Shown here one piece after another: positions 12,504-57,748 of a DNA stretch of 64,000 nt. Source of the stretch: Candidatus Tectimicrobiota bacterium (GTDB lineage Bacteria > JACPUC01); the NCBI GenBank assembly GCA_016192455.1, contig JACPUC010000003.1, forward strand, positions 186,001 to 250,000, read 5' to 3'. Both the position numbers and the translations under genes were made by a program. The stretch's first letter is position 1. Each line of letters starts with the position of its first letter. Under the pieces are notes generated by a model. The model saw only the letters and a program-made list of their open reading frames with translations. It was not told the DNA's origin and made no database searches.

Positions 12504-12645
12504 TCACACCCCCTCGATCTCGTAGGCGCTGAGGTCGACGGGCTTCATGGTGGCGCGCTCGAACTGCGGCTGGCGGGGCAGGGGGACGGTGGCGTCGATG
12601 CCGAGGCGGGTCCACTTGCGTGCTCCACCATGGGGTTGAGGCGGT
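12504..12645 (-). repeat. Displaced duplicate of the UbiD gene 3' end
   Basis: Near-identical to 13470-13612, including the stop position (TGA versus TAG), with a 1-bp deletion. Confidence 0.92.
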
Positions 12646-12708
12646 CACGAGCGCCCCTTCATTCCTGCGGATGCGGAGGTTTCCTCCTCTCTTCCTCAAG
12701 CTTCCCCG

Positions 12709-13122
12709 TCATGGCCGCGCCACTTCAGGCAGTCGAGCAAGAATGGTCTCGTAGACCGCCGTCGCCAATATCCGGGCCCGCGCGGCGTCTTCAAGAGATG
12801 GTTCCCCCGGCTCCTGGGGGTAGCGGAACTGCCACGCATAGGGCGTCAGCTCTTCGGCCTGCTCGCACACCGGCTGCAGCGAGGCGTCAATCGCCGCGCT
12901 CTCTCGCCCGAGCTCGCGCAGGTCGTGGGTTTTCCGAAACGGCACGTCGTGCCAAGTGAGAAAGGCTTTGAGGGCCTTCTCGGCGGCCTGCTGGGCATGG
13001 AAGAGGACGTCTTCGAGGAACGGCGGGGTAGCGGAGAGGGCGATGTCAACGCCGCGCAGGTCTTTGCCGGCCCGTACGAGCCATGCCCGCGTGTCTTCGA
13101 CAAGTCGCGGGTCATGCGCCAT
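12709..13122 (-). CDS. HEPN domain protein (MNT-HEPN pair)
   Basis: FHAQQAAEKALKA, KTHDL and RYP motifs; overlaps the end of the MNT gene. Confidence 0.9.
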   Translation of the reverse strand: MAHDPRLVEDTRAWLVRAGKDLRGVDIALSATPPFLEDVLFHAQQAAEKALKAFLTWHDVPFRKTHDLRELGRESAAIDASLQPVCEQAEELTPYAWQFRYPQEPGEPSLEDAARARILATAVYETILARLPEVARP

Positions 13123-13444
13123 ACAGCAGCTTCCCCTCGCGGACGACGGTTGACGGGAAGGATGCCTTGAGGTGGAGACGGCCATCGAAGGCCTCGCGCG
13201 TCCACACCTGCACGTCCACCGCCGCGCCGATGCCTCGCAGGGCGAGGTACCCTTGCTGCGAGCGCCGGTGCGGTGGATCGGGAGAGGAGGCCACCACGAC
13301 CATGATGTCGAAGTCGCTGTCCGCTCCAGCGTCGCCCCGGGCCTTCGAGCCGAAGAGATAGATTCGCTCGGGAGCGAACACTTCCACGAGCCGGCGCACA
13401 ATCTCTTCGAGGATCGCGTCCTGTTCCGCGGTCGGATTGGTCAT
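13112..13444 (-). CDS. Minimal nucleotidyltransferase (MNT)
   Basis: LFGSKARG..DSDFD motif. Confidence 0.9.
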   Translation of the reverse strand: MTNPTAEQDAILEEIVRRLVEVFAPERIYLFGSKARGDAGADSDFDIMVVVASSPDPPHRRSQQGYLALRGIGAAVDVQVWTREAFDGRLHLKASFPSTVVREGKLLYGA

Positions 13445-13469
13445 CAGCGTGCCTTGACGAACCGCCCCG

Positions 13470-14837
13470 CTACACCCCCTCAATCTCATAGGCGCCGAGG
13501 TCGACGGGCTTCATGGTGGCGCGCTCGAACTGCGGCTGGCGGGGCAGGGGGACGGTGGCGTCGATGCCGAGGCGGGTCCACTTGTCGTGCTCCACCATGG
13601 GGTTAAGGCGGTGGCCGATGGCGTCGTGGACGAAGAGGAGGTCCTTCTCGAAGCGGCAGCGCGTGGCGACGGCCCACTCCACGTCGGCCAGGCTGAAGAT
13701 GTTGACGTCGCGGTCCACCACCGTGACGATCTTCAGGAAGGGGAGGGCCACGAAGGCGGCCATGATGGCGTTGCGCTGGCTGCCTTCGACGCGTTTCTCC
13801 ATCTGCACCACGAGGTGGTAGGGGACGCTGCCGTCGGAGAGGTGCACCGCCGTCACCTCCGGCACCAGGCTGTGCACCTTCTCGTAGATGCCGGCCTCGG
13901 TGATCAGGGAGAAGGCGTTGTACACCTCCTTGCCGGAGAGGATGGAGTGGAAGATCGGCTCGCGCCGGCGGGTGATGGCGCTGACCTCGAAGACCCAGCG
14001 CTGGTCGCGGTTGGCGTAGTAGCCGGTGACCTCGGCGTAGGGGCCTTCCGGCTCGCGGCGGTTCGGCAGGAGGCGGCCCTCGAGCACGAACTGAGCGTTG
14101 GCGATGGCCTCCACGCCGACGGTCTGCGCCTCGAGGAGCTGCAGCGGCTCGCCGAGGAGCTGGCTGGAGATGCCCAGCTCATCCATCTCCAGGGGAGCCG
14201 CCGAGGCAGGCGCCGCCGCGGCCATGTTGACGCAGTAGTCAACGCCGTTGTTCACCGTGATCTCAAGCGGCGCCCCCTTCGCCTCGGCGCGCTTGAAGTA
14301 GTCCATCAGGTGCCCCAGCTCCTCGAGCAGGAGCGCGAAGCGCTTCTTGCCGGTCACCATCATGCGGTGGATGGAGGCGTTGCGCACGCCGGTGTCAGGG
14401 TCCTTGGCGATGACGACGCTGGAGGTGAGGTACGGCCCGCCGTCCTTCTCGGCATGGTGCGGAATGGGAAGCTTCGAGACGTCGGGCAGCCGCTCGACGA
14501 CCTCGTTCGCCGGCCCGCGCTTCAGCACCACCGGTTCCATGGGCGCCCGGCGCCAGGCTTTGATCTCCTCGCTGAGCAGGAAGGGAAGCCGCTCGCTGGT
14601 GCTGTTGAAGAAGGACGCCAGGATGTCGCGGTTCCAGTACAAGCCGATCAGCACCGGGTAGGCGCGCCGTTCCACCTTCTCGAAGAGGACGACTTTGCCG
14701 CCCTCGAACTTCTTGGCGATGCCCGCCAGCTCGTGCTTCAGGGAGACGGGGCTCTTCACGCGCACGAGCTGGTTCTGCTTCTCGAGGTGGGCGATATACG
14801 CCTGCAGGTCGATCAAGCCGCGTTTCGCCAGGTCCAT
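13470..14837 (-). CDS. UbiD family (prFMN-dependent) decarboxylase
   Basis: DGGPY, NASIHR, EGPYAE, VDRDV and GIDAT motifs. Confidence 0.92.
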   Translation of the reverse strand: MDLAKRGLIDLQAYIAHLEKQNQLVRVKSPVSLKHELAGIAKKFEGGKVVLFEKVERRAYPVLIGLYWNRDILASFFNSTSERLPFLLSEEIKAWRRAPMEPVVLKRGPANEVVERLPDVSKLPIPHHAEKDGGPYLTSSVVIAKDPDTGVRNASIHRMMVTGKKRFALLLEELGHLMDYFKRAEAKGAPLEITVNNGVDYCVNMAAAAPASAAPLEMDELGISSQLLGEPLQLLEAQTVGVEAIANAQFVLEGRLLPNRREPEGPYAEVTGYYANRDQRWVFEVSAITRRREPIFHSILSGKEVYNAFSLITEAGIYEKVHSLVPEVTAVHLSDGSVPYHLVVQMEKRVEGSQRNAIMAAFVALPFLKIVTVVDRDVNIFSLADVEWAVATRCRFEKDLLFVHDAIGHRLNPMVEHDKWTRLGIDATVPLPRQPQFERATMKPVDLGAYEIEGV

Positions 14838-15081
14838 GCTCGTCCCGCCCTTTCCGCCCTCGGCCCGCCCGCGCCGCAAGCAAAAGGCCGGGAACGTTGG
14901 CCCCCGGCCCCCAACGACCCTTGAGTCCGCGGTGGCGTCGCAGCCGCTCACGGCACCGCCCTGCTCCGCGCGGCACCCCTCGCGCGGCTTTCGCGCGCCG
15001 GCGCTTGCGGCGCGACGCAACCCCCGCCGCAGCCGCGGCCAGTCGCCACCCCTCCCTCTCGGCCCAGGGGCTTCGTTCTTG

Positions 15082-16482
15082 CTACTTGCTCATGCCGGCG
15101 AGGGCCGCGGCGATCTCCTCGGTGCGCGGCTGCGACTCGATATCCTTCAGGGTGCGCCGGATTTCCTCCTCCGGCAGATCGTACGGCTGCATGCGGCCGT
15201 TGTTGAACTCGTCGTAGGCGCTGAGATCGAAGAGGCCGTGGCCGCTCATGTTGAAGAGGATGACCTCGGCCCGCCCCGCCGCCTTGCAGCGCAGCGCCTC
15301 ATCGATGGCGGCGCGCAGGCCGTGGGCGCTCTCCGGGGCGGGGATGAAGCCTTCGCACTGGGCGAACAGGCGCGCCGACTCGAAGACCTTCATCTGATTG
15401 TAGGCGCGCGGCTCCATGTGGCCGAGGTTGTAGAGGTGGCTGATGAGCGGCCCCATGCCGTGGTGCCGCAGGCCGCCGGCGTGAATCTTGGCCGGGATGA
15501 AGGTGTGCCCCAGGGTGTGCATGGGGATCAGCGGCGTGAGCTTGTTGCTGTCGCCGTAGTCATAGCGGAACTCGCCGCGCGTCAGGCTCGGGCAGGCCGT
15601 CGGCTCCACCGGCATGAAGCGCGTCTTGGCGCCGTTCACCAGCCGATCCCGCAGGAACGGGAAAGCCAGGCCGCCGAAGCTGCTGCCGCCGGCGCAGCAG
15701 CCGATGATGATGTCCGGGTAGTCTCCGGCCATCTCCATCTGTTTGCGCGCCTCCTGCCCGATCACCGTCTGGTGCATGATGACGTGGTTCAGCAGGCTGC
15801 CGAGGAGGTACTTGGACCCCTTGGTGTTCAGGGCGTCTTCCATGCCCTCGGCAATGGCCATGCTGAGGCTTCCCGGGGTATCGGGGTCCTTCGCCAGGAT
15901 GGCGCGGCCCGCCGCGGTGAGGGGGCTGGGGCTGGCGTCGACCTTGGCGCCCCAGGTCTCCATGAGGATGCGGCGGTACGGTTTCTGGTCGTAGCTGATG
16001 CGCACCATGTAGACCTGGCAGGCAAGGCCGAAGAGCTTCGCGGCCATGGCCATGGAGCTGCCCCACTGGCCGGCGCCGGTCTCGGTGGTGCAGCGCGTCC
16101 CCCCCTCCTTCTTCAGGTAGTACGCCTGCGCCACCGCCGTGTTCAGCTTGTGGCTGCCGGCGGGGCTGACCCCTTCGTACTTGTAGTAAATTCTCGCCGG
16201 CGTATCGAGGACCTTCTCGAGCCGCCGCGCCCGGTGCAGAGGCGTGGGCCGCCAGATCGCCAGCTTGTCGCGCACCTCGTCGGGAATCTCGATCCAGCGC
16301 TCGCTGCTCACCTCCTGGGCCACGCACTCCGCCGGAAAGATCGCCGTCATCTTCGCCAGGTCGACCGGCATCTTGGTGGCGGGGTCGATCGGCGGCAGCA
16401 GCGGCTGGGGGAGATCGGCCTGGACGTTGTACCAATGGGTGGGGATGGCTGACTCGTCGAGAATGTACTTGTAGCGCTCCAA
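15082..16482 (-). CDS. trpB2: Tryptophan synthase beta chain type 2 (TrpB2-like PLP enzyme)
   Basis: IPTHWYN, GSHKLNTA, TETGAGQWG, HAGGLR and SGHG motifs. TTG start at 16482 follows GGAGG. Confidence 0.9.
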   Translation of the reverse strand: MERYKYILDESAIPTHWYNVQADLPQPLLPPIDPATKMPVDLAKMTAIFPAECVAQEVSSERWIEIPDEVRDKLAIWRPTPLHRARRLEKVLDTPARIYYKYEGVSPAGSHKLNTAVAQAYYLKKEGGTRCTTETGAGQWGSSMAMAAKLFGLACQVYMVRISYDQKPYRRILMETWGAKVDASPSPLTAAGRAILAKDPDTPGSLSMAIAEGMEDALNTKGSKYLLGSLLNHVIMHQTVIGQEARKQMEMAGDYPDIIIGCCAGGSSFGGLAFPFLRDRLVNGAKTRFMPVEPTACPSLTRGEFRYDYGDSNKLTPLIPMHTLGHTFIPAKIHAGGLRHHGMGPLISHLYNLGHMEPRAYNQMKVFESARLFAQCEGFIPAPESAHGLRAAIDEALRCKAAGRAEVILFNMSGHGLFDLSAYDEFNNGRMQPYDLPEEEIRRTLKDIESQPRTEEIAAALAGMSK

Positions 16483-16801
16483 GGGTGCCTCCACGAGATG
16501 CGGCCCGCCGGCGGCGCAAGCCTGCGCCCCTGCCCTGTTCTCGTGCGCGCTCCATGGCGCGCTCACAGGGGCACGACGGCCACGGCAAGCCGCTGGCTGG
16601 GAAGTGGGGCTCCTTGCCGACGGCGACGGGGGCTGCAAGGAGCATGTCCGAGGATTTGTTTACCGGCGCATTGTGCTAAGTTGGACCCCTGATGTCAACG
16701 TGAATTCATCTTACGGCGCGACGCCGTTGCCGGAACGACGTCGAACGTTCCGGGGTGCGCCTCAGTTCGTCGAAGAGGAGAACCGTGGGTGAGCACCGCT
16801 G

Positions 16802-16829
16802 GTAGGGGCGGTTCGCGAACCGCCCCTAC
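16802..16829. repeat. GTAG REP palindrome
   Basis: Perfect palindrome GTAGGGGCGGTTCGCGAACCGCCCCTAC. Confidence 0.9.
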
Positions 16830-16949
16830 GAGATGATCCGCGTGCAACCGTGGTTCCCATCGCTGTCGCGTCCATCGGCGGTCTTGATGCATCGCAGAGG
16901 CGCGGAGGTCATGTTCGAGGCAGGTCAACCAGAAGAGGCCTTTTTCTAT

Positions 16950-17003
16950 CCACATCGCTTCAAGGTCATCGAGAGCCTGGAACGTCTAGCTTACTTGAGC
17001 CAT
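16950..17003 (-). pseudogene. ParE/RelE toxin remnant
   Basis: Overlaps the antitoxin 3' end and reads MAQVS*TFQALDDLEA, with TAG where a Trp codon is expected; similarity is then lost. Confidence 0.6.
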
Positions 17004-17173
17004 CTCGCCATCCGCCGCCGGGCCTCTTCCTGGCTGATCAGCTCACCACGGTCCGCTTGGCGAAGGCCTCTCTCAATCTTGAAGAAGAGGTAGAGCCGGT
17101 CGATGGCGTCCTCGACGCTCGCGTCGTCCGGTAGCTTTTCGATTGCCTTCAAGATCTGCTGCTTGGTTTCCAC
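16991..17173 (-). CDS. Putative antitoxin (orphan)
   Basis: 60 aa with LPDDASVED..IERGLRQADRGELISQEEAR pattern, typical of ParE/RelE-associated antitoxins. Confidence 0.7.
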   Translation of the reverse strand: METKQQILKAIEKLPDDASVEDAIDRLYLFFKIERGLRQADRGELISQEEARRRMARWLK

Positions 17174-17176
17174 GCC

Positions 17177-17584
17177 TTACCCTCCAATCAACGTTTCAAC
17201 GGCATCGTACCATAAGCTCTCTGCAAGACCAATCCCGCCGACCGGAATGACACAACGCGGGGGCGGCGCGTAGAGACGCGATTTCATAACCAGACCGGGA
17301 AAAGTTGTTCGCCTTTGTCTGTCGATCTTCAACTTCTTGAACTCGTCTTGAGAGCATCTGGGATCAATCATAATCTGGTCGATGAATGTAGCAGGATCAA
17401 TTCCATAGCGGAAAAGGTCGTTGCCCTTTTTTTGTTCTCGCCATACAGCAGCCGGACTTCCCGCTCGTGGCTGAACGCCCGCCGCGCGCGAAACCGACAG
17501 GCCAAACTCGTCGTGAATCTCGGCGCGGACAAAAGCACCTAGGCAGGAAGGCTTCATGCCGATTTTTGCCGATTCTCCACTCAT
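17177..17584 (-). pseudogene. Chimeric remnant: HigA-like N-terminus joined to an unrelated low-GC C-terminal fragment (possibly DUF2971-like)
   Basis: MKPSCLGAFVRAEIHDEFGLSVSRAA resembles a HigA start. IDQIMIDPR...KSRLY then follows in lower-GC DNA. Confidence 0.5.
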
Positions 17585-17907
17585 CGGCGGGCCGGACGGA
17601 CTTCCAGCCGCACGCCTTCCTTCTTCTGGAGATAGGCCACGATGTCGAACAGGTTACGGGCCTGCGGATTGCCCTTCGGGCCAAGCATGCCCATGAGGCT
17701 CTTCGGCGATTTGTGCATGGCCGCGCCAAGTTCTTCGAATCCGACCGTCGCGTTGATATAGTCACGCAAGACGGTCTTGCCGGTTTCCACGTCGCCGGCA
17801 AGAAAGCTTTCGACGCCTTCGCGGAGAAGCGCCTTGCGAAAAGCGGCGTCACGCTGAGCGCGCGCCCGAATCGTTTCCTTGAAATCGCGGGTCAATGCCA
17901 TCGTCAT
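17581..17907 (-). CDS. Addiction module antidote protein (HTH, HI1420-like)
   Basis: MALTRDFKET...LRDYINATVGF...KSL...GNP; overlaps the toxin stop codon. Confidence 0.85.
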   Translation of the reverse strand: MTMALTRDFKETIRARAQRDAAFRKALLREGVESFLAGDVETGKTVLRDYINATVGFEELGAAMHKSPKSLMGMLGPKGNPQARNLFDIVAYLQKKEGVRLEVRPARR

Positions 17908-18233: not shown

Positions 18234-18235
18234 CT

Positions 18236-18266
18236 ACAATAGTACCATATATGTTACTATTGTCAA
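18236..18266 (-). promoter_or_regulatory. TA promoter with overlapping palindromic operator
   Basis: TTGACA-N16-TACTAT on the minus strand, overlapped by inverted repeat ACAATAGTACCAT-AT-ATGTTACTATTGT. Confidence 0.75.
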
Positions 18267-29312: not shown

Positions 29313-29389
29313 GCTGGCGCGCGAGGGGGCACCTGGGTCGTAGGGGCGGTTCGCGAACCGCCCCTAACGCGCTGGCGCGCGAGGGGGCA
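29313..29389. repeat. REP flanked by 19-bp direct repeats
   Basis: GCTGGCGCGCGAGGGGGCA at 29313-29331 and 29371-29389 surrounds the REP starting at 29340. Confidence 0.8.
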
Positions 29390-31131: not shown

Positions 31132-31186
31132 GGGGGGGTGGTCTTTGCTGGGGGCGAGGGGGAAGCGAATTTGATAAGCGAAGTTC

Positions 31187-31260
31187 TTGTGGGGGACCCT
31201 TGCTCCCCCCCACCCCCATTCCGCGCGAGCTGCTCAGCAGCTCGCGTAGGGGGGGTGCGC
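31187..31260 (+). repeat. Truncated MITE-family copy
   Basis: GGGGGACCCTTGCTCCCC-CACCCCC-CGCGAGCTGC..GCAGCTCGCG-GGGGTGCGC, matching 33425-33497. Confidence 0.75.
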
Positions 31261-31395
31261 CATGGCCAAGATTTCGCTTAGGTCTTGCATTCCTCAATAT
31301 AGGCCCTATCACTTTGGAGTAGGAGCACGCATGACCTTCGTGGGGTGACCACGTAGCCGCGTCCTGCACCACGTCTTGTTGGCCTGTCAGGCTAC

Positions 31396-31424
31396 TTGAC
31401 GAGGCGTATCTGGAGGATTATGCT
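31396..31424 (+). promoter_or_regulatory. Putative sigma70 promoter of the SEFIR/TIR gene
   Basis: TTGACG-N17-TATGCT. Confidence 0.6.
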
Positions 31425-31466
31425 AAATAGACTACTTATTTCTCTGCTCAAAGGTAAACATGACAA

Positions 31467-32897
31467 ATGACGGCGCCAAAGTTGTTCATATCATATAGTT
31501 GGTCAAGTCCGGACCACGAACAATGGGTCGCGGATTTCGCTACCGAGTTGCGTGAATCTGGCGTTGATGTGATCCTAGATAAGTGGGATTTGAGAGAAGG
31601 CCATGATGCTATCGCATTTATGGAGAAGATGGTTACAGACCCAGAGGTTAAGAAAGTCGTGATTGTTTCTGATCGCATCTACGCGGCGAAAGCTGATGGC
31701 AGGGCAGGTGGAGTTGGAAAAGAGACGCAAATAATTTCCAAAGAGGTGTATGAAAAACAAACGCAGGATAAATTTGTTGCGGTTGTTCGAGAAAAAGACG
31801 AAGAAGGCAAGCCTTATCTTCCAACCTATTATAAGTCAAGAATCCATATCGATCTGAGTGAGCCAGAAACATATGGCGCGAACTTCGAAAGGCTTCTGAG
31901 GTGGGCCTTCGATAAGCCACTTTATGTTAAACCTGAACTTGGCAACAAGCCCTCTTTCCTGGAAGAGGGTGAGCATGTGTCTCTCGGTACAACAGTAAGC
32001 TTTAGAAGAGCTATTGATGCCATAAAAAATAACAAGACTTACGCAGCAGGTGCATTAGACGAATATCTAAATACCTTTGTTCGCAACCTTGAACGATTTA
32101 GGCTTGAGAAGCCCATCGGAGAGTTCGATGATGCCGTGGTTAAGAATATCGAAGAATTCCTGCCTTTCCGCAATGAAGCCATTCAACTCTTTATTACAAT
32201 TAGTCAGTACTCTCAAGGCGGTGCATTCCTGTGGAGCATTCACCGATTCTTCGAGAACCTAATTCCATATATGGACAGGCCTCCCCATATTTCTACATGG
32301 CGCGATGAGGATTACGATAACTTCAGATTCATTGTTCACGAGTTGTTCTTATACACCTTGGGGATTTTAATCAAATTCGAATGTTTCGAACAAGCCAGAT
32401 ATATGCTGGAACAACGATATTACTTCCCCGGAAATTCTGAGTCTGGCCGGGACTCAATGGTTAAGTATTTGATTTTCCACCAACGCACGTCATCTCTCAC
32501 ACACCGCAGCAAGCGTCTCAATCGCCTTTCTGTTCGAGCTGATCTTTTGAATGAGCGTTGCACAGGGGTAGGTATCGAGTTCTTGCATCTCATGCAAGCT
32601 GACTTTGTAATATTTATGCGAGCGGAAATAGAATCTACGGATGATTACCCCCGGTGGTGGCCGGAGACTTTGTTATATATTCGTTACTCCCGTAGGCCAT
32701 TCGAAATATTTGCACGTTCGATATCGAAAAGCTATTTCGAGTTAGTTAAAGGACTTTTAGGAATTACATCTCCTACTGACCTGCAGCCATTGCTTACTAG
32801 TTATAGTGAAAGAAGGAGGCAGTTACCCAGGTGGGATTTCGACTCAATCAATCCTGGGGTACTACTGGGATCCGATAAATTGGCTTCAAAGTCATAA
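31467..32897 (+). CDS. SEFIR/TIR-domain protein, putative anti-phage
   Basis: KLFISYSW...GVDVILDKWDL.EG.D...FME...GVGKE; low GC. Confidence 0.85.
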   Translation: MTAPKLFISYSWSSPDHEQWVADFATELRESGVDVILDKWDLREGHDAIAFMEKMVTDPEVKKVVIVSDRIYAAKADGRAGGVGKETQIISKEVYEKQTQDKFVAVVREKDEEGKPYLPTYYKSRIHIDLSEPETYGANFERLLRWAFDKPLYVKPELGNKPSFLEEGEHVSLGTTVSFRRAIDAIKNNKTYAAGALDEYLNTFVRNLERFRLEKPIGEFDDAVVKNIEEFLPFRNEAIQLFITISQYSQGGAFLWSIHRFFENLIPYMDRPPHISTWRDEDYDNFRFIVHELFLYTLGILIKFECFEQARYMLEQRYYFPGNSESGRDSMVKYLIFHQRTSSLTHRSKRLNRLSVRADLLNERCTGVGIEFLHLMQADFVIFMRAEIESTDDYPRWWPETLLYIRYSRRPFEIFARSISKSYFELVKGLLGITSPTDLQPLLTSYSERRRQLPRWDFDSINPGVLLGSDKLASKS

Positions 32898-32920
32898 CTC
32901 GCGATCGGGGTTTGGTAAAG

Positions 32921-33022
32921 ATGTTACTTCAAAAAGACAGACGTGAGATTCGGCAGATCATTTGTGAGCATTTCCAGTATATCGAGCAACAATGGGATGA
33001 TTTTCAAAAGAGGCGCCACTAA
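32921..33022 (+). pseudogene. C-terminal remnant of a DUF4160-like protein
   Basis: KDRREIRQIICEHFQYIEQQWDDFQKRRH*; the stop overlaps the DUF2442 ATG (TAATG). Confidence 0.55.
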
Positions 33023-33279
33023 TGCCACGCCACCACGAGATAGCAGACCTGTATTTTGAAGGCGAGTTGATGGTCATGACCATTGACGGAGAAGTGAGAC
33101 GGTTCCCTCTCCACGAGGTATCGCCCGCTCTCGCGAAAGCCACGGAAAGAGAGCGAAACACGTTTGCAATCTCCCCATCGGGATATGGAATCCATTGGCC
33201 CTTGCTTGATGAAGATGTGTCCGTCGATGGTTTGCTGGGAGTCATTCATTCTCCTGACGTTCAACACAAGACCTCCTGA
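33022..33279 (+). CDS. DUF2442 domain protein (antitoxin-like)
   Basis: L.KAT..ER..F.ISPSGYGIHWPLLDEDVSVDGLL. Confidence 0.88.
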   Translation: MPRHHEIADLYFEGELMVMTIDGEVRRFPLHEVSPALAKATERERNTFAISPSGYGIHWPLLDEDVSVDGLLGVIHSPDVQHKTS

Positions 33280-33353
33280 CACCTCTCTCCCACCGCGACA
33301 CGCTAACCCGCGCCCCTGGCTTCACCCCCCCTTGTCATTTCCCCCCGCTGGTG

Positions 33354-33530
33354 CTAGTGTCACGTATCAGAAGCTCTATCACCAATTCGGCGCCATTCTC
33401 ATTCATATGAAGGGGGGATTTTTTTGTGTGGGACCCTTGCTTCCCCACACCCCCAGCTCCCGCGAGCTGCGCGGCAGCTCGCGACGTCGGGGTGCGCGAG
33501 GGGGCACTGCTCCCTCGCAGAATTATTAGA
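33354..33530 (+). mobile_element. Diverged MITE-like copy
   Basis: Starts CTAGTGTCACGTATCAGAAG and has the same internal hairpin order as the other copies. Confidence 0.7.
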
Positions 33531-37172: not shown

Positions 37173-37311
37173 CGGCAGCATCGGCGCGCCGCCGCGCCCT
37201 GCTCACGTCCTGCGTGGGAGGGAAGCGGAGGAAGTTGTTGTCGGCGGAGTGGATTTGCGGAGGAGAGGCGAGGCGGGGGATCAGGCGCGGCGGCGCCGCT
37301 CCCCCCGCTCT

Positions 37312-37460
37312 CAAGAGTTACGTCGCACAAGTTCCAGCCTAAATTCGACGCCCTCTTCGCGCCATGTGGCGGGGAAGTTTTTGCGGGGGACCCCTTCCTT
37401 CCCCGCACCGCCAATCCCCGCACGCGGTAGGGGTCTGGGGGATCAATGGTCCCCCAGAAA
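37312..37460 (+). repeat. Partial MITE-family copy between convergent genes
   Basis: GTTACGTCGCACAAGTTCCAGCCTAAATTCGACGCC matches the left part of the 38569 copy. Confidence 0.7.
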
Positions 37461-37479
37461 ATCCTCACCATCGACCCGC

Positions 37480-38181
37480 CTACGTCGCCCCGCCCTGCCA
37501 GGCCATGTCCCAGAAGAGCAGCTCGTAGCGGCAGCTTGCCAGGAAGTGGTCGGTCAGGCGCGCCTGCTGCTCGGCTGGCAGCGCCGCGGCCTGGAAGCGT
37601 TCATCGAGGAGGCGACGGCACCACTCCGCCAGCTCGCCGAAGGCGGGGTCGCTGTAGGTGGTGATCCAGGCGGCGTAGCGGCGATCGCCCGCCGCGGCGT
37701 CCGCCCCCCGCGCGGCACGCTCCCTCGCCAGCGTCGCGCCGATCTCCCAGTAGCCCCACATGCACGGCAGGAGCGCCGCGATCACCTCGACGAGGGGGGC
37801 GCTCCAGGCGACCGCCAGGAGGTGCCGGGTGTAGGCGCGCGTCGTCTCGTGCACCTCCGCCCCGGCCATCTCCGCCTCGCTCAACCCGAACTCGGCGGCG
37901 TAGGCGCGGTGCAGCGCCATCTCTTGCGTCAGCGTGCTCGACAGCAGGCCGGCGAAGCGCCGCATGAGGTCGAGGTCCGCCGCCTTGGCGCAGCAGAGCG
38001 CGAAGACGCGGCAGTAGTCGATGAGGAAGAGGTAGTCCTGGCCGAGGTAGAACGTGAACTTCCGCGCCGGCAGGGAGCCGTCGGCGATGCCGCGCACGAA
38101 GGGATGACGCAGCTCCGCTTCCCAGACGGGCGCCGCGGCCTGGCGCAGCCGGTCGGTGAACCGCGCCGGTCGATCGGGCAT
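37480..38181 (-). CDS. tenA: Thiaminase II (TenA, Cys-containing)
   Basis: HPFV.GI..G.L, YLGQDY, LLPCMWGY, WITTY and E..FWDMA motifs. Confidence 0.92.
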   Translation of the reverse strand: MPDRPARFTDRLRQAAAPVWEAELRHPFVRGIADGSLPARKFTFYLGQDYLFLIDYCRVFALCCAKAADLDLMRRFAGLLSSTLTQEMALHRAYAAEFGLSEAEMAGAEVHETTRAYTRHLLAVAWSAPLVEVIAALLPCMWGYWEIGATLARERAARGADAAAGDRRYAAWITTYSDPAFGELAEWCRRLLDERFQAAALPAEQQARLTDHFLASCRYELLFWDMAWQGGAT

Positions 38182-38270
38182 CGGCTGAACCTCCGCCGGC
38201 GCCGGCGAGGAGGTCTCGCGCCTTTCCTCCCTGCACCCGACGCCACGCTCGCGGCACTGAACCCAACCTG

Positions 38271-38488
38271 GTAGGGGCGGGGCTTGCCCCGCCCGCTCGC
38301 AGGGGCCGCCCCCTCGCTCGCGGCTCCGAAACGCAACCCGCCGCCGGACGCGCGCGGGCGGGGGGAGGTAGGACCGCCGGAGGCGGGCGGGGCAAGCCCC
38401 GCCCCTACATGATGGCTTGGGGCGGCGGGCGAGGCGCGGTCTGGTAGGGGCGGTTCGCGAAGGGATCAATGATCCCAACCGCCCCTAC
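38271..38488. repeat. REP cluster: inverted doublet plus an interrupted REP
   Basis: GTAGGGGCGGGGCTTGCCCCGCCC with an inverted copy ending at 38408; the REP at 38444-38488 has a central insertion. Confidence 0.8.
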
Positions 38489-38568
38489 GGGGTCCGCGGG
38501 CCAGGCCATGAATAGGCGCCGGCCAGTTTACGAGGCCGCGAGGTCCTGGCTGGCGGGCCACCCGGCTT

Positions 38569-38784
38569 CTAGTGTTACGTCTCACAAGTTCCATCCTAAC
38601 TTCGACGCCTTCTTCGTGCCATCTGCAGGGGGAAAATTTTTTGTGGGGGACCCTTCCTTCCCCACACCCCCACTCCCCGCACGCGGTAGGGGCGGTTCGC
38701 GAACCGCCCCTACGATGAGGGGTGCGCGAGGGGGCGAGGCTCCCTCGCAAATCTAGGCGATCTAATTTGAGAAACCGCACACTA
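38569..38784 (+). mobile_element. ~215-bp MITE-like element with internal REP
   Basis: CTAGTGTTACGTCTCA...TGAGAAACCGCACACTA; similar to 26704-26913. Confidence 0.8.
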
Positions 38785-39486: not shown

Positions 39487-39691
39487 GGCGCTCTCCTTCA
39501 ACCCTTGCCTTCCACGACCTGGACAATCCGGCCACGCACGAAAAGGTTTTCATCCTTCGATATCCTGGGTAGCCCCGCGTGAGCCGCAGCGAGGAGCTAC
39601 CGCGCACCATGCCCATTCCTGGGGAGCCAGTATACGGTAGCGCCGCCATGATGCAACGGCAACCGGATGCAGGAGCATTCACGTCCAGTCA

Positions 39692-39946
39692 TTACTCGTA
39701 GCTCGCAAAACAATAGATAACCTTCATCTGATCGATTTTGAAATACACATATAACGGTGGGTTGACTCGAATCGTCGCAATTCTGTAACTCGTCCGCCCA
39801 ACGACAGGAAAAAGGTTAGGATGATTCCTAAGCACATCGTCTAAAGCACCTCTTATTTCGTCCCAGCGTTCAATCGAACCAGCAAATTCCGCAATGGTTT
39901 GCGTAAATTGCCGAGACTCAATTATTTCATAGTAGCCGCTATTCAA
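39692..39946 (-). CDS. Putative toxin downstream of the Panacea antitoxin (possibly RelE-like)
   Basis: About 84 aa, low GC, YEIIESRQF...L.NHP...LYVYFKID. TTG start inferred. Confidence 0.5.
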   Translation of the reverse strand: MNSGYYEIIESRQFTQTIAEFAGSIERWDEIRGALDDVLRNHPNLFPVVGRTSYRIATIRVNPPLYVYFKIDQMKVIYCFASYE

Positions 39947-39950
39947 CCGC

Positions 39951-40505
39951 CTAATCTCTTCCTTGGTCGAGCTTTTCAAGCTCCCTCGCCTTGGCAATTT
40001 GCCTGTCGGTCGGCGGGGCGGCGGCAATCCAACTATACGTATACGGTATCTCCTCTCCTGTGGAGGTTGCCATCCAGCCGATCTCTTGATGAGATAAAGC
40101 GCTCACCTGTGAAGCGTTGAGATGCCAGAGACGATCAATGACGCAGTCCACAATTTCCAGCTCATCCTTTGTAAATAAATCCGTTCTCGGTTGCCTCTTG
40201 GTAATAATCCTGTGTTGCTGATAATTGTGGTATTGGATGTACTCATAGACGATCGCCTCTTCTTCTATGAGAGCATCTTTAATACCCAGAAACTCGATTG
40301 GCGCTGGCCCTTCATCCAGATGCTGATAGATGGCCCATGTTATTGAGTTGCCAAGACGCCGGTATGCCTCAAAATCGGAATAATAGAGGATCTTGTTAAG
40401 TTTCACAGCCCCAAATGTATCATCATCTTTACATCTGTGGGCAATGTATAAAACCAATTCCTTAAACTTGCGTGTATTAAGACCAGCCATGTCTTTTACC
40501 GCCAC
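39951..40505 (-). CDS. Panacea domain (DUF4065/SocA) antitoxin
   Basis: KLNKILYYSDF, Y.HL..GP and SALSH...W motifs; low GC. Confidence 0.85.
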   Translation of the reverse strand: MAVKDMAGLNTRKFKELVLYIAHRCKDDDTFGAVKLNKILYYSDFEAYRRLGNSITWAIYQHLDEGPAPIEFLGIKDALIEEEAIVYEYIQYHNYQQHRIITKRQPRTDLFTKDELEIVDCVIDRLWHLNASQVSALSHQEIGWMATSTGEEIPYTYSWIAAAPPTDRQIAKARELEKLDQGRD

Positions 40506-40702
40506 CTAGATGCAATGCTCTTCGAGGTACGACCACCAAATTATTATTATACAGGGTGTATGACTTGTCAATATGAATTTACACACGTCTCGGGCAATAT
40601 CTATGCCAAGGAAGGATCAAAATATACGTCCGCCAGACATGATGGGCGCGGGGGAGCCAAGAGTAAGGAAGCCGCCATGACGTGCATCACGACGACGACG
40701 CC

Positions 40703-47734: not shown

Positions 47735-47903
47735 GGTCGTTCTCCAGGCTGAGAGACGCCGTGCTCAAAATCCCGCGCTTCATGCCGCGGGGCGTGTTGG
47801 AATCGTCCCCCGGCCGCGCGGCTACGTCGGGGCAATCCGCGAGATCGGCGAAATCTGCGGACGAACCTCCCGCCTACGTGGGAATCGCTCCCCAGCCGCG
47901 CGG

Positions 47904-50249
47904 CTACTTCGGGGAGGCGCGCTTCGCCTCGCGCAGCGCCCGCAGGACGCGCTCCGGGGTGAGCGGCAGCTCGAAGACGCGCGCCCCGGTGGCGTGGTAG
48001 ACGGCGTTGGCGATGGCCGGGGCGGGCGGGATGATGGCCGGCTCGGCGATCCCCTTGGCGCCGTATGGTCCCTCCGGGTCCTCGGTGATGATCCAGTGCG
48101 CCGTAACCTCGGGGACATCCAGCACGGTGGGGAACTTGTAGTCGAGGAAGTTGCTGTTCAGCGTCGTGCCGCCGCCGAACCGCATCTCCTCCATCAGCCC
48201 AAAGCCCATCCCCTGCACGGCGCCGCCCTCGACCTGCCCCTCGGCCCCCTGGGGGTTGATCGGGAAGCCGATGTCGTGCGAGGCGGTGAGGCGCACCACG
48301 CGCACGATGCCGGTCTCCTCGTCCACCTCCACCTCGGCGGCGTGGGTGCCGAAGGCGTAGGCGGCGGAGCTGTTGCCGCCGTGCCGCCCGGGAAGCTGCG
48401 TCGGCGGATCATAGAAGGCTTCCGCCATGAGCGTCGTGCCGCCTTCGCGGTAGTGCGCCGCGCGCGCCACCTCGGCCAGGCTGACGGAGCGGTCGGGCGC
48501 GCCCTGCACGAAGACGCGGCCGTCGGCGGCGCGCAGGTCGGCGGCATCGGCCTCGAGCAGCTCGGCGGCGAAGGCGAAGAGTTTCTCCCGCAGCTTGCGG
48601 CCGGCGAGGCGCACGGCGTTGCCGGCCACGAAGGTGCCGCGGCTGGCGTGGATGCCGACGTCCCACGGCGTCAGGTCGGTATCGCCGGAGAAGAAGCGGA
48701 TGTGGTCCAGCGGCACCCCCAGCTCCTCGGCGGCCACCTGCGTCTGCACGGTGGCGAGGCCCTGGCCGAGGTCGCCGGCGCCGGAGATGAGACTGAGGCT
48801 GCCGTCGTCGTCGAGCTTCAGGATGACGCCGCAGCCGTCGGTGTCGCCGTGAAAGCGCGCCCCGCCGCCGACGTGGAAGAGGCAGGCAAGCCCGAGGCCG
48901 CGCCGCGTGAAGCGCCGCCCGTTGCTGCGCGCCGCCTCGGAACCGGCGGCGGGCCGGGCGGCGTCGAGGGCGGGACCAAGGCTCGCGCTGCCGCGGCCCT
49001 GGGCGTCGTCAAGGCTCTCGCGCAGGCCGCAGGAGGTGATGACGTGGCCCAGCGGCGTCGTCTCGTTCGGCCCGTTGGCGTTGCGGCGGCGCAGCTCCGC
49101 CGGCTCGATGCCCAGCTCGCAGGCGATGATGTCCATCTGCGACTCGATGGCGAAGGTCACCTGCGGGTTGCCGTAGCCGCGGAAGGCGCCGCCGTAGGGC
49201 TTGTTGGTGTAGACCATCTTAGCCTCGAAGCGCGTATGCGGCACGCGGTAGAGCGCCAACCCCAGGCCGCCGGCCACCGAGGTGACGCCGGGCGCCTGGC
49301 TGAGGTAAGCGCCGCTGTCCACCACCACGCTGAAGTGGCGCGCCGTCAGTGTGCCGTCGCGCTTTACGCCGCTGCGGAGGGTCATGCGGAAGGGATGGCG
49401 GGTGCGCGTGGCGACGAACTCCTCCTCGCGGTCGTAGACGATCTTCACGGGGCGGTTGGTGAGCTGCGCCAGGCGGCCGCAGATGGGGTCGATACAGTGC
49501 ATCTCCATGCGCGAGCCGAAACCGGCGCCGAGGTGGGTCTTGATGACGCGCACCCGGCTGTCGGGCAGGCCGAGGGCGTGGGCCAGCTCGTGGCGCAGGA
49601 TGAAGGGCATCTGCGTGCTGGCCCAGAGGGTGAGGCGGCCGTCGGGCTCCGGGCGGATGACGCTCTGGCGTGGCTCCAGGCAGCAGTGCGCCTGCGCCTG
49701 CGTGGAGAAGGTGTGCTCGAAGACGCGCTCGGCGGCGCGCAGGCCCTCGTCGAGGTCGCCGCCCCCCATGGTGAGCGAGGCGGCGATGTTGCGGGCGCGG
49801 TGCTCGTGCACCAGCGGCGCCCCCTCCGCCATGGCGGCGAGGGGGTCGTAGACCGGCTCCAGTTCCTCGTACTCGACCTCGATGAGATCCAGGGCCTCCT
49901 CGGCGATGTCGGCGTCGATGGCGGCCACGGCGGCCACCTCGTCGCCGCGGTAGCGCACCTTGTCGCTCTTCAGCGGCAGGCAGTCGGCCCAGGACTCCCG
50001 GACGAAGTCCATGAACCCCATCGGGATGCCGGGCATGTCGGCGGCGGTGATGACGGCCTTCACCCCCGGCAGGGCGCGGGCCTTGGCAGTGTCGATGTGC
50101 AAAATGCGGGCGTGCGGCAGGCGGCTGCGCAGAATCTTGCCGTGCAGCATGCGCGGCAGCGTCACGTCCACCCCGTACACCGCAGCCCCCGTCACCTTCT
50201 CTATGGCATCAACGCGGAGCGCCGTCCGCCCCACCACGGCATGCTGCAT
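47904..50249 (-). CDS. Xanthine dehydrogenase family molybdopterin-binding subunit
   Basis: KVTG, LGAGFGSR, AFRGYGNPQ, GQG and GAKGIAE motifs. Confidence 0.93.
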   Translation of the reverse strand: MQHAVVGRTALRVDAIEKVTGAAVYGVDVTLPRMLHGKILRSRLPHARILHIDTAKARALPGVKAVITAADMPGIPMGFMDFVRESWADCLPLKSDKVRYRGDEVAAVAAIDADIAEEALDLIEVEYEELEPVYDPLAAMAEGAPLVHEHRARNIAASLTMGGGDLDEGLRAAERVFEHTFSTQAQAHCCLEPRQSVIRPEPDGRLTLWASTQMPFILRHELAHALGLPDSRVRVIKTHLGAGFGSRMEMHCIDPICGRLAQLTNRPVKIVYDREEEFVATRTRHPFRMTLRSGVKRDGTLTARHFSVVVDSGAYLSQAPGVTSVAGGLGLALYRVPHTRFEAKMVYTNKPYGGAFRGYGNPQVTFAIESQMDIIACELGIEPAELRRRNANGPNETTPLGHVITSCGLRESLDDAQGRGSASLGPALDAARPAAGSEAARSNGRRFTRRGLGLACLFHVGGGARFHGDTDGCGVILKLDDDGSLSLISGAGDLGQGLATVQTQVAAEELGVPLDHIRFFSGDTDLTPWDVGIHASRGTFVAGNAVRLAGRKLREKLFAFAAELLEADAADLRAADGRVFVQGAPDRSVSLAEVARAAHYREGGTTLMAEAFYDPPTQLPGRHGGNSSAAYAFGTHAAEVEVDEETGIVRVVRLTASHDIGFPINPQGAEGQVEGGAVQGMGFGLMEEMRFGGGTTLNSNFLDYKFPTVLDVPEVTAHWIITEDPEGPYGAKGIAEPAIIPPAPAIANAVYHATGARVFELPLTPERVLRALREAKRASPK

Positions 50250-54989: not shown

Positions 54990-55005
54990 GTCTGGCTTCC
55001 TCCTC

Positions 55006-56406: not shown

Positions 56407-56638
56407 ACGCCTCTCCCCCTCCCCGCGATGTCTTCCCGAACGCGCCCCGGGCGCGCCGCCACCCTCCCCCAACGCCGCGGGCGCGCCTCCTTGACGCAAG
56501 CTCTCCGTGCTAGCGGTAGGATACTCCAGAAGCAATAATTGTCACATAAATTGTTCTAATTCCACCTATCACTTCTGTTGAAATCGCCGCAATTTCCCCC
56601 CGCGGCCGCGCGCCACGGGGCAACCGAGGCCCGACGCC

Positions 56639-56701
56639 GCGTCTCGGCGGTGAATTAGCATAGGAAGGCGCGGGCTGGGGGCGGGGGGATGAGGAGCTGA
56701 T
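56639..56701 (+). repeat. Direct repeat, left copy
   Basis: GCGTCTCGGCGGTGAATTAGCATAGGAAG...GGGGGCGGGGGGATGAGGAGCTGAT; recurs at 57693-57748. Confidence 0.88.
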
Positions 56702-56862
56702 CACCAATCATTTATCTCTTTGTCTAATTGATTTCCAACATCTTCTAGGAATTTCACGACTGCAGCACATTCAGATGCCAAATCCCATTCTATGGAATAG
56801 TCACTGCCATTGTCATTCATATATGCTTCCTCACGAAAGGAAAAACTTCTATACCTTACTTC

Positions 56863-57405
56863 TCAATAACGTCTTAACAACATCCAAAGAACGAAACCAA
56901 TAAGCACTGTGTTCGTCAATATGAGGTAGCCGACCAGTAGGATATACAACGACCCAGCATCTACAATCATTGCGTGGTCTGCCGCTGGATGGAAGAGGGC
57001 GGGGCTTGGAATCCAGCCGCCCCTAATGTGAGCGGTATCTGGACCAGAAAACCTCGCGAGAACTCTTCCCAGCTGATGAGCCAGAAGATCAAGGCTCTCG
57101 ACAAAGCTCTTGTATCGGGAGAAAGCGTAATATACGACACCAACGGTTGCGATGTCGATCAACACTTCGACGCTGCCCCGCCGGATGTCAATATTCTGCG
57201 CCTCGAATTGGGGACCGAGGAAAGACGCAACCTCCGACCTAATCTCGCTCATGAACGACTCCCTGAGGTTGGAGAGCCGCTCATATATCTGTATCGAACG
57301 ATCATCGCTTTCTGGAAACACGGATATCGCAACTATGCGTATGGTACAGATATGCCCCGAGAGCCTTACGTGTTTGCTAAAAGGTAGAGTCCCAAATATT
57401 CTCAT
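56863..57405 (-). CDS. Low-GC hypothetical membrane protein
   Basis: 180-aa ORF with hydrophobic segments; no family recognised; start uncertain. Confidence 0.55.
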   Translation of the reverse strand: MRIFGTLPFSKHVRLSGHICTIRIVAISVFPESDDRSIQIYERLSNLRESFMSEIRSEVASFLGPQFEAQNIDIRRGSVEVLIDIATVGVVYYAFSRYKSFVESLDLLAHQLGRVLARFSGPDTAHIRGGWIPSPALFHPAADHAMIVDAGSLYILLVGYLILTNTVLIGFVLWMLLRRY

Positions 57406-57692
57406 GGTGAATCACCGATTCTCTAACCGGAATTATGCAGCAACAGCCGCTCGGAGCCAGATTTCGGGCTCGTCCGCCCGCTTTCTGGCATCGTTTCTCC
57501 TGGGAGTCCAGGCATCGAAACTACCTGAAGGCGCCTCTGAGGCCCCCTTCACAGCCAAATCCTTCTCCCGCAACGAGGTCTTCTTGGTTGTTGGGCCTCC
57601 TACCCCACCCGGCCTCATGATGTCAAGTCAAATTTTACCCGCGAGACGCGGTGGACGCGGAGAGGGGGCAAGACGAATCCTGTGCGCTCTCT

Positions 57693-57748
57693 GCGTCTCC
57701 GCGGTGAATTAGCATAGGAAGACGGGGGCGGGGGGATGAGGAGCTGAT
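57693..57748 (+). repeat. Direct repeat, right copy
   Basis: Matches 56639-56701 with a 7-bp gap; begins in the arm of a CTCTGCGTCTCCGCGGTGAA hairpin. Confidence 0.88.

What the first reader, a model, noticed from the sequence alone, without database searches (positions are those of the whole stretch)
12504..57748. Recurrent insertions bracketed by long (19-143 bp) direct duplications, often at gene 3' ends, with no recombinase nearby: candidate cassette-acquisition system
Seen: five intergenic insertions have long direct repeats on both sides. These are 12504-12645/13470-13612 (MNT-HEPN), 56639-56701/57693-57748 (low-GC ORFs), 47799-47832/47881-47914 (hairpin), 29313-29331/29371-29389 (REP) and the degenerate 39621-39655/40651-40686 (Panacea TA). 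The repeats are unrelated to each other and look like copies of the local target. Known: DDE transposons usually make short TSDs, and phage integrases regenerate gene ends but are normally encoded in the element. Inference: a trans-acting, possibly REP/hairpin-guided or homology-driven mechanism may deliver 1-2 kb TA/defence cassettes behind housekeeping genes.
Basis: partly seen in the sequence, partly recalled or inferred. Interest (0 to 1): 0.8.

Follow-up and report, generated by a model that had tools for sequence, protein, structure and literature searches.

The report
Recombinase-less defence cassettes between long repeats
Small toxin-antitoxin and anti-phage gene cassettes in this groundwater bacterium sit between two copies of the neighbouring gene's end, a pattern already described for restriction-modification genes whose mechanism is still unsolved.

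Summary
Only two bracket gene cassettes: MNT-HEPN, between two copies of the last 142 nt of a UbiD-family gene, and an unknown low-GC pair of ORFs between 63/56-nt intergenic copies. The REP and hairpin pairs bracket 39-48 nt fillers. Other repeat pairs in the window (bSEFIR, TenA) belong to dispersed intergenic repeat families.

Genome-wide I found 13 single-copy cassettes between locus-unique 33-182 nt direct repeats: MazEF, HigBA, ParDE, PIN, GxxExxY, DAC, SIR2-STAND, ParA-HEPN and unknowns. None has a recombinase, terminal inverted repeats or shared end motifs. Bracketing is enriched about 25-fold at toxin genes. The repeats are often the 3' end of a gene, tRNA or tmRNA and stop at the gene's functional end. 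One tRNA island of the same build keeps a truncated integrase.

This architecture matches attL/attR of single-crossover integration and the "insertion with long target duplication" reported for restriction-modification systems. REP or hairpin guidance is not supported. Whether an integrase acting in trans, host homologous recombination or a staggered break made the repeats stays open, because no empty site could be examined. I file it as a new member of a known kind.

The parts
12504..12645 (-). Direct-repeat copy A. It is the displaced pseudo 3' end of the UbiD-family gene, with a 1-nt deletion and an in-frame TGA kept.
12709..13122 (-). HEPN toxin gene of the cassette
   Evidence: PF05168, E = 3e-19
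13112..13447 (-). MNT (nucleotidyltransferase) antitoxin gene. The likely start is the ATG at 13447; the longest ORF reaches 13489.
   Evidence: PF01909, E = 5e-9; sequence read
13470..13612 (-). Direct-repeat copy B. It is the functional last 47 codons plus TAG of the UbiD-family gene 13470-15020.
13456..13472 (-). Half of the REP palindrome, abutting the UbiD stop codon at the cassette junction
56639..56701 (.). Locus-unique intergenic direct repeat, left copy
56701..57405 (-). Low-GC cargo: a 180-aa ORF (56863-57405) with a hydrophobic C-terminus and a 39-aa ORF (56701-56820). No family was found.
57693..57748 (.). Locus-unique intergenic direct repeat, right copy, 42 nt downstream of the glycosyltransferase gene 57790-58521(-)
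47799..47914 (.). Two 34-nt copies (30 of 34 identical) around a 48-nt filler. The right copy spans the stop codon of the MoCoBD gene 47904-50393(-). No ORF lies between them.
29313..29389 (.). Two 19-nt identical copies around one REP (29339-29366). This is a one-off among the REPs.
39621..40686 (.). Panacea-domain islet (39951-40505, plus a 111-aa ORF). The proposed degenerate repeat is at chance level.
31184..33502 (.). bSEFIR defence gene (31467-32897, +) between two members of a dispersed intergenic repeat family. This is not a target duplication.
37301..38692 (.). TenA-family gene (37480-38478, -) between two members of a dispersed repeat family
58938..59098 (+). First copy of a 161-nt repeat: 84 nt upstream plus the whole tRNA-Phe, ending at the tRNA 3' end. 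The second copy lies at window-equivalent 64080-64240, just outside the window. It brackets a 5-kb metabolic island with no integrase.

Best explanation
Each locus-unique repeat pair is an attL/attR-like scar of a single reciprocal crossover (Campbell-type integration). The crossover was between the chromosome and a small circular DNA carrying the cassette plus its own copy of the local target, most often the 3' end of a gene, tRNA or tmRNA.

The copy next to the gene keeps the gene intact. The other copy is the displaced end and decays. The recombinase is not in the cassette. Most likely a tyrosine integrase worked in trans or was lost. The cassettes persist although repeats make them deletable, because the cargo is addictive (toxin-antitoxin) or protective.

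Shown here: the architecture, its recurrence, the enrichment at toxin genes, and the absence of recombinase genes and transposon ends. Inferred: the crossover itself, the circular intermediate and the enzyme.
For: (a) Four of 5 RNA-gene repeats end exactly at, or 1 nt past, the RNA's 3' end: tRNA-Pro(tgg) 46 nt from the anticodon loop to CCA, tRNA-Pro(ggg) 48 nt, tRNA-Phe 161 nt and tmRNA 233 nt. Furuta et al. describe that stretch as a usual integrase target.

(b) The tRNA-Pro(ggg) island has the same build and still holds a truncated 167-aa integrase next to the tRNA.

(c) For UbiD and the luciferase-like gene the repeat starts at the stop codon, and the sequence beyond it is unrelated. All 7 distal copies that reach the stop keep an in-frame stop there. 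Two of them have TGA where the gene has TAG, although the copies differ by only 3% in UbiD.

(d) The cargo is single-copy in 11 of 11 bracketed cassettes. None of 11 has terminal inverted repeats above shuffles. No 9-mer is shared among the ends. Transposition is therefore unlikely.

(e) Logan contigs of two source runs reproduce all four junctions of the MNT-HEPN structure at equal depth, 17, 18 and 20 in run X1.
Against: - No integrase lies in any of the 13 cassettes. The genome (88% complete) has only 5 PF00589 matches, one broken, and none on this contig.
- The repeats are unrelated in sequence, so one integrase could not serve all sites.
- The cassettes are compact, with 22 to about 180 nt of non-coding DNA on each side. 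Clean loss of an integrase gene 13 times is hard to accept.
- Three repeats are purely intergenic. One (ParDE) lies at a gene's 5' region.
- No viral contig carries the UbiD-end mimic: 0 of 16 pattern matches were confirmed.
- The excess of synonymous differences between copies (26 to 22 against 26% expected) does not discriminate. A plain tandem duplication, the L004 permease end, gives 6 to 5.
Confidence: 0.42

Rival explanations
1. Homology-driven insertion-duplication without a dedicated recombinase. DNA from a related strain carries the orthologous gene end followed by the cassette. It integrates by RecA through that one-sided homology, either as a circle by single crossover or by homology-facilitated illegitimate recombination. 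Recombination between the two repeat copies later releases a circle that can repeat the cycle.
For: - The repeats are unrelated in sequence and 33 to 182 nt long, within reach of homologous recombination.
- No recombinase lies in or near any cassette.
- The repeat stops where orthologues of two strains would stop being alike, at the end of the gene.
- The stop codons differ (TAG against TGA) as alleles would.
- A relative about 95% identical exists in other groundwater runs, and its contig stops matching exactly at the UbiD stop codon.
Against: - The first formation of a repeat-flanked cassette still needs an illegitimate event.
- Nothing shows that this organism takes up DNA.
- The tRNA-Pro repeat runs from the anticodon loop to CCA, as in integrase sites. 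One such island keeps an integrase remnant.
- No donor allele was seen.
Confidence: 0.27
2. [quoted passage not shown] This is the reading given for restriction-modification genes.
For: - It has the same signature as in Furuta et al. 2010: unique repeats over 30 bp, no mobility gene, and repeats spanning start or stop sites.
- The ParDE repeat is 77 of 77 identical.
- The small fillers at 29313 and 47799, and a 240-nt repeat-element filler with a 33-nt duplication at an ABC gene's stop (L003), look like the same process on a small scale.
Against: - It gives no reason for repeats to end exactly at tRNA, tmRNA and stop-codon positions.
- It does not explain TAG against TGA in copies that are 97% identical.
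- No enzyme is known for it. The toxins here are RNases or unknown proteins, not DNA cutters as restriction enzymes are. That statement is family knowledge, not a test.
Confidence: 0.17
3. No insertion mechanism at all. The pairs are neighbouring members of dispersed intergenic repeats, local tandem duplications or chance.
For: This is true for part of the list.
- The bSEFIR and TenA flanks are dispersed families.
- The Panacea pair is at chance level.
- L004 is a tandem duplication; its two binding-protein genes are 86% identical.
- The L005 repeat lies between tandem Metal_resist paralogs.
- Two MNT-HEPN loci are tandem duplications.
- One 'island' is a CRISPR array.
- 211 of 307 local repeat pairs are coding against coding.
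Against: The 13 core events have two-copy repeats, single-copy foreign-looking cargo and non-coding distal copies. Their frequency exceeds the controls.
Confidence: 0.08
4. Assembly artefact of a metagenome-assembled genome that mixes strains.
For: - The genome is a 31-contig assembly, 88% complete with 2.3% contamination.
- Logan contigs break inside the identical core of the 142-nt repeat. On their own they cannot tell the integrated form from an empty site plus a circle.
Against: - The copies differ (97%, 91%, 88%), unlike collapsed or duplicated assembly errors.
- Each of the four junctions lies inside an independent contig of two runs at equal depth.
Confidence: 0.03

Closest known systems
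Insertion with long target duplication of restriction-modification genes (Nobusato et al. 2000, Gene 259:99, seen only as a reference; Furuta, Abe and Kobayashi 2010, PMC2853133, abstract, section 10 and passages read)
   Same: Gene units lie between locus-unique direct repeats longer than 30 bp. No mobility gene is in the insert. The repeats often span a stop or start codon. Insert GC differs from the genome. The cargo is an addiction or defence module. The mechanism is unknown.
   Different: The cargo here is toxin-antitoxin pairs and single-gene defence proteins, not restriction-modification genes. The empty sites that define the published cases could not be examined. Several repeats here end exactly at the gene's functional 3' end. 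The review PMC3874152 (passage read) ascribes this mode to restriction-modification systems only. The paper's supplementary figures were not seen.
Integrase-borne genomic islands and prophages with attL/attR that duplicate the 3' end of a tRNA, tmRNA or protein gene (the example of e14 and phage 21 in icd, with an element-borne substitute gene end, is recalled and comes from no call)
   Same: The repeat is the 3'-terminal part of the target gene and ends at its functional end. The proximal copy restores the gene. One island here (tRNA-Pro ggg) keeps a truncated integrase.
   Different: Thirteen cassettes of 0.4 to 3.3 kb have no integrase and no room for a remnant. The targets are unrelated, and some are plainly intergenic.
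Integrase-less att-flanked elements mobilised in trans (cis-mobilisable elements of streptococcal ICEs; recalled, from no call)
   Same: Cargo lies between att-type direct repeats at a gene's 3' end with no recombinase of its own.
   Different: Those elements share the att site of a resident helper element. No helper with matching sites is seen here.
Integron gene cassettes
   Same: Both are small, promoter-poor cassettes that are often toxin-antitoxin pairs and are acquired one at a time.
   Different: There is no array, no shared attC-like site or fold and no integrase nearby. The repeats are copies of the local target.
REP/BIME elements with RAYT transposases
   Same: The genome has 125 copies of a 28-nt palindromic REP, and composite hairpin elements lie in intergenic spacers.
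   Different: REPs are not bracketed by duplications, except one. They are not enriched at island ends. The only Y1-transposase match is a weak hit inside a 1399-aa frame.

Membership tests
Insertion with long target duplication (Furuta et al. 2010 criteria) | The insert is flanked by direct repeats longer than 30 bp | tested here: met
   13 events have repeats of 33 to 182 nt
Insertion with long target duplication (Furuta et al. 2010 criteria) | The repeat is low-copy and not a dispersed element | tested here: met
   The core set has two copies each. The bSEFIR, TenA, Dam and L012 flanks fail this test.
Insertion with long target duplication (Furuta et al. 2010 criteria) | No mobility gene lies in or beside the insert | tested here: met
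   Pfam scans of cargo and neighbours; genome census
Insertion with long target duplication (Furuta et al. 2010 criteria) | A related genome shows an empty site with one repeat copy | not testable with these tools
   No relative is held: it is the only genome of its phylum in the set. The best metagenome and genome matches are 74-75% amino-acid identity without synteny. Contigs of a 95% relative gave no listed joint.
Insertion with long target duplication (Furuta et al. 2010 criteria) | The cargo is a restriction-modification system | tested here: not met
   The cargo is MNT-HEPN, MazEF, HigBA, ParDE, PIN_12, GxxExxY, DAC, SIR2-STAND, ParA-HEPN and unknowns
Integrase-mediated integrative element | Direct repeats are made of the 3' end of the target gene | tested here: met
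   tRNA-Pro twice, tRNA-Phe, tmRNA, UbiD, the luciferase-like gene, creatininase and the SIS gene
Integrase-mediated integrative element | A tyrosine or serine recombinase gene lies inside the element | tested here: not met
   0 of 13 cassettes. Among the RNA-gene islands only the tRNA-Pro(ggg) island has a 167-aa fragment.
Integrase-mediated integrative element | Excision to a circle and an empty site | not testable with these tools
   Only contigs, not raw reads, were available
DDE or other cut-and-paste transposon | Terminal inverted repeats, short fixed-length target duplication and multiple copies | tested here: not met
   No inverted ends in 11 of 11. Repeats are 33 to 182 nt. Cargo is single-copy.
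Integron cassette | A shared attC-type recombination site that folds as a hairpin | tested here: not met
   No shared 9-mer at the ends. Repeat folding z-scores run from -1.5 to +1.6.
REP/RAYT-guided insertion | Association of inserts with REPs and a RAYT gene | tested here: not met
   1 of 123 REPs is bracketed. Island ends carry dispersed repeats in 9 of 143 cases against 244 of 2453 genes. One weak PF01797 match. The single half-REP at the MNT junction is unexplained.

The most novel reading that the evidence does not exclude
These are members of a mobile-element class that encodes no recombinase. An addiction or defence cassette carries a 30-180 nt copy of a host gene's end. It enters by one host-mediated homologous crossover, is held in place by its own toxicity on loss, and leaves as a circle by recombination between its two repeat copies. 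If so, ordinary homologous recombination alone spreads defence genes behind housekeeping genes within a population.
Probability: 0.2. Interest if true: 0.7.

Novelty: new member of a known kind. Interest (0 to 1): 0.4.

Why it matters
How single toxin-antitoxin and defence genes come to lie alone between housekeeping genes, away from recognisable mobile elements, is poorly explained. The one described pattern of this sort, long target duplication around restriction-modification genes, has had no mechanism since 2000.

This genome offers more than a dozen such events with other cargo. It also holds tRNA and tmRNA examples, one of which retains an integrase remnant. Public groundwater runs hold the same population and a relative about 95% identical. 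Empty sites, circles and donor alleles could therefore be sought directly.

If the repeats prove to be diverged alleles rather than in-situ duplications, the question would be settled in favour of recombination over staggered breaks.

Tried and rejected
Empty sites:
- The 30 'relatives' offered are related only at domain level, and only 2 gave short matches (E about 1e-4), with no synteny. The phylum holds only this genome.
- UbiD scans of metagenome and genome contigs gave at best 74-75% amino-acid identity and no shared neighbours.
- I laid contigs of 2 source runs and 2 other groundwater runs on 11001-31000. Among the joints listed (15 shown, 243 not shown) none joins 12503 to 13470. The 95% relative in X5 stops matching at 13469, and another of its contigs leaves at 12534. 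This is a hint of a different occupant at that site, not a finding.

An element-borne UbiD-end mimic in viral contigs: 16 pattern matches, none confirmed.

Synonymous against non-synonymous differences as a test of 'diverged alleles': 26 to 22, above a uniform-mutation expectation of 26% (p = 4e-5). A known tandem duplication gives the same ratio, and GC-rich third positions bias the expectation. I rejected it as a discriminator.

Negative searches:
- shared end motifs
- terminal inverted repeats
- hairpin folds of the repeats
- Rfam families in the non-coding repeats: only 2 tRNAs were found
- other copies of the cargo in the genome: none in 11 of 11
- repeats around the aspartyl-protease, 16650, Ymh and 50448 islands

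Function of the 180-aa cargo protein: no family in Pfam, PADLOC or NCBIfam, and Atlas hits are below 0.9.

Literature on toxin-antitoxin cassettes with this insertion mode: 7 papers hold both 'long target duplication' and 'toxin-antitoxin'. I read passages in 2 of them (in one search the term occurs only in the reference list), and neither reports it for toxin-antitoxin pairs. A second search listed nothing relevant by title or abstract.

Earlier findings of the scan were not open.

Full report
Setting. The window is positions 186001-250000 of a 365-kb contig of a 4.46-Mb, 31-contig, roughly 67% GC assembly. It is 88% complete with 2.3% contamination. Public runs that hold it are groundwater metagenomes. 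It is the only genome of its phylum in the held collection. The window encodes mostly metabolic genes: UbiD-family decarboxylases, molybdopterin oxidoreductases, CoA-transferase, cbb3 oxidase and ABC binding proteins. These are interrupted by short, mostly low-GC stretches.

The five pairs.
- Pair 1 is the strongest: 136 of 140 aligned bases identical with a 1-nt indel, and present only twice in the genome.
  - Copy B (13470-13612) is the last 47 codons and TAG of the UbiD-family gene 13470-15020(-).
  - The 824 bp between the copies hold an MNT gene and a HEPN gene.
  - Copy A (12504-12645) is a frameshifted pseudo-end that still finishes with an in-frame stop, TGA.
  - Beyond the stop codon the two copies are unrelated.
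- Pair 2 (63 and 56 nt, 54 of 56 identical with a 7-nt gap) is unique and far above shuffles, 85 against 28. It encloses 991 bp of 50% GC with a 180-aa and a 39-aa ORF of no known family.
- Pair 3 (30 of 34 identical) and pair 4 (19 of 19) are real, but they enclose 48 nt and a 39-nt REP-bearing filler, not cassettes.
- Pair 5 is at chance level, 27 against a shuffle maximum of 28.

Two kinds of repeat must be kept apart. The genome carries a 28-nt palindromic REP with 125 cores. It also carries composite hairpin elements that fill many intergenic spacers. The repeats flanking the bSEFIR gene (PADLOC E = 1.5e-119) and the TenA gene belong to such families, with 17 and 5 other matches. They say nothing about target duplication. 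Three controls speak against REP or hairpin guidance:
- Only 1 of 123 REPs examined has a flank repeat longer than 10 nt; among 615 random control sites, 2 reached 15 nt or more.
- Dispersed repeats are not enriched at the ends of low-GC islands: 9 of 143 against 244 of 2453 native genes, p = 0.19.
- None of 10 locus-unique repeats folds better than its shuffles.

Recurrence.
- Direct repeats less than 3 kb apart far exceed the same measure at distant spacings. For 50-99 nt the counts are 154 against 20, 6, 3 and 5. For 100 nt or more they are 112 against 10, 1, 0 and 1, on contigs of 70 kb or more.
- However, 211 of 307 merged pairs are coding against coding, that is paralogs or domains. Of the other 96 rows, 44 have at most two copies.
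- After Pfam scans I set aside several rows:
  - tandem duplications: L004, whose two binding-protein genes are 86% identical; the tandem Metal_resist paralogs at L005; a pseudogene copy on C13; two MNT-HEPN tandems
  - internal gene fragments
  - a CRISPR array
- 13 cassettes remain. Each lies between locus-unique repeats, and each was checked for recombinase genes:
  - MNT-HEPN
  - the unknown pair at 56639
  - MazEF
  - PIN_12
  - Gp49/HTH_37
  - HTH_37
  - ParE/RHH (77 of 77 identical)
  - a 508-aa unknown (104 of 108)
  - a 633-aa unknown beside tRNA-Leu
  - GxxExxY
  - a DAC-domain protein in tRNA-Pro
  - SIR2-STAND
  - ParA with HEPN_RiboL-PSP
- A uniform test found such repeats around 7 of 16 toxin-gene matches (5 after dropping the two tandem loci) against 7 of 400 random positions, p = 3e-5.
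- It found them around 8 of 143 low-GC islands (7 without the CRISPR array) against 0 of 429 matched controls, p = 1e-5.
- The pattern is therefore real and cargo-biased, but 133 of 143 islands lack it.

Anatomy that bears on mechanism.
- For 11 of the 13 cassettes, the cargo is single-copy, the ends share no 9-mer in three or more events, and there are no terminal inverted repeats.
- None of the 13 holds a recombinase. The genome has 5 tyrosine-recombinase matches (one broken), 3 serine-recombinase matches and one weak Y1-transposase match. None is on this contig.
- The repeats tend to be the terminal part of a gene and to stop at its functional end:
  - tRNA-Pro(tgg), 46 nt from the anticodon loop to CCA
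  - tRNA-Pro(ggg), 48 nt
  - tRNA-Phe, 161 nt
  - tmRNA, 233 nt
  - UbiD and the luciferase-like gene, which start at the stop codon
- Other repeats run 26 to 45 nt past the stop, lie in intergenic DNA, or lie near a 5' end.
- The tRNA-Pro(ggg) island has the same build and keeps a 167-aa integrase fragment. The tRNA-Phe and tmRNA islands carry a metabolic operon and a CusCBA-type pump, and have none.
- All 7 distal copies that reach the stop keep it in frame. In two the codon is TGA where the gene has TAG. For the 97%-identical UbiD pair this is easier to explain by two different sequences meeting at the stop codon than by decay of an in-situ copy.

Explanation. The simplest reading is Campbell-type integration. 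A circle with the cassette and a copy of the target recombines once with the chromosome, leaving attL/attR-like repeats. The enzyme is open.
- An integrase in trans, or lost, fits the tRNA, tmRNA and stop-codon limits and the one remnant. It does not fit the unrelated targets or the compact, remnant-free cassettes.
- Host homologous recombination with DNA of a related strain fits the unrelated targets and the lack of enzymes. It leaves the first event unexplained.
- A staggered break with fill-in, the implicit model for restriction-modification genes, fits the perfect 77-nt pair and the tiny fillers. It does not fit the gene-end rule.
- Independently of the route, repeat-flanked DNA is easily deleted. 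Survival should therefore favour cargo that kills on loss or protects. This is an inference that would explain the cargo bias.

Comparison and novelty. Furuta, Abe and Kobayashi (PMC2853133) describe restriction-modification genes between unique repeats over 30 bp. These often span stop or start sites, have no mobility gene and have no known mechanism. They separate those cases from tRNA cases that carry integrases. The present events meet every criterion I could test except the cargo type. The defining empty site could not be tested. I found no paper reporting this mode for toxin-antitoxin pairs (searches; passages). The supplements of the 2010 paper were not seen. I therefore file it as a new member of a known kind.

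Limits.
- No empty site, circle or donor allele was seen.
- The assembly is incomplete.
- My gene calls rest on ORF length and GC3.
- The contig data cannot phase the 142-nt repeat by themselves.

Noticed in passing
window 11554-11991, 17177-18233, 31467-32897, 39692-40505, 43676-44464, 50448-52076: The window is dotted with solitary defence-type genes between metabolic genes. They are a retropepsin-like aspartyl protease, a Gp49/HigB-like toxin beside a PDC-S31-like ORF, bSEFIR (E = 1.5e-119), a Panacea-domain antitoxin, a Hypoth_Ymh / PD-Lambda-3_B-like protein, and a 542-aa protein with a sub-threshold GapS1 match. Most have no bracketing repeat.
   Followed up: partly
window 58938-59098 and G000:C1:250080-250240 (L086): Two full tRNA-Phe genes with 84 nt of upstream sequence (144 of 161 identical) bracket a 5-kb island of native GC. 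It holds glyoxalase, two AA_synth paralogs and an NMT1-type ABC transporter, and no integrase.
   Followed up: partly
window 13456-13472 and 12646-12660: Half of the REP palindrome abuts the UbiD stop codon at the cassette junction, and a weaker half-REP-like motif sits at the other cassette end. Only 31 such half sites lie outside full REPs in the genome.
   Followed up: partly
window 43314-43409: A tandem array of a 12-nt unit (AGGGAAGAAGGC, about 8 copies) lies at the edge of the Ymh islet.
   Followed up: no
window 3766-3942 and 3976-4152: A 177-nt repeat, 87% identical and 210 nt apart, lies in a spacer that also holds a REP.
   Followed up: no
G000:C7:276164-283253 (L087): The last 233 nt of the tmRNA gene are duplicated 6.5 kb downstream. 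The pair brackets a CusC/CusB-CusF/CusA-type efflux operon without an integrase.
   Followed up: partly
G000:C6:118939-126522 (L088) and G000:C9:123841-129438 (L089): Single giant surface-protein genes (2101 aa with TSP3 repeats; 1553 aa with NHL and PKD domains) each lie between unique direct repeats of about 470 and 163 nt.
   Followed up: no
G000:C9:121214-121556 (L096 515-857): A 77-nt-period array of 4.5 units has a repeat beginning GTTTCAATCCCC and looks like a small CRISPR array. No cas genes were checked.
   Followed up: no
G000:C6:65242-65547 (L003): A 240-nt filler made of dispersed repeat elements sits between two 33-nt copies of the end of an ABC ATPase gene, stop codon included. 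This is a small-scale version of the same architecture.
   Followed up: partly
G000:C2:40511-40744: The genome's only Y1-transposase (RAYT-type) match is a weak hit inside a 1399-aa open frame, although the genome holds 125 REP copies.
   Followed up: no
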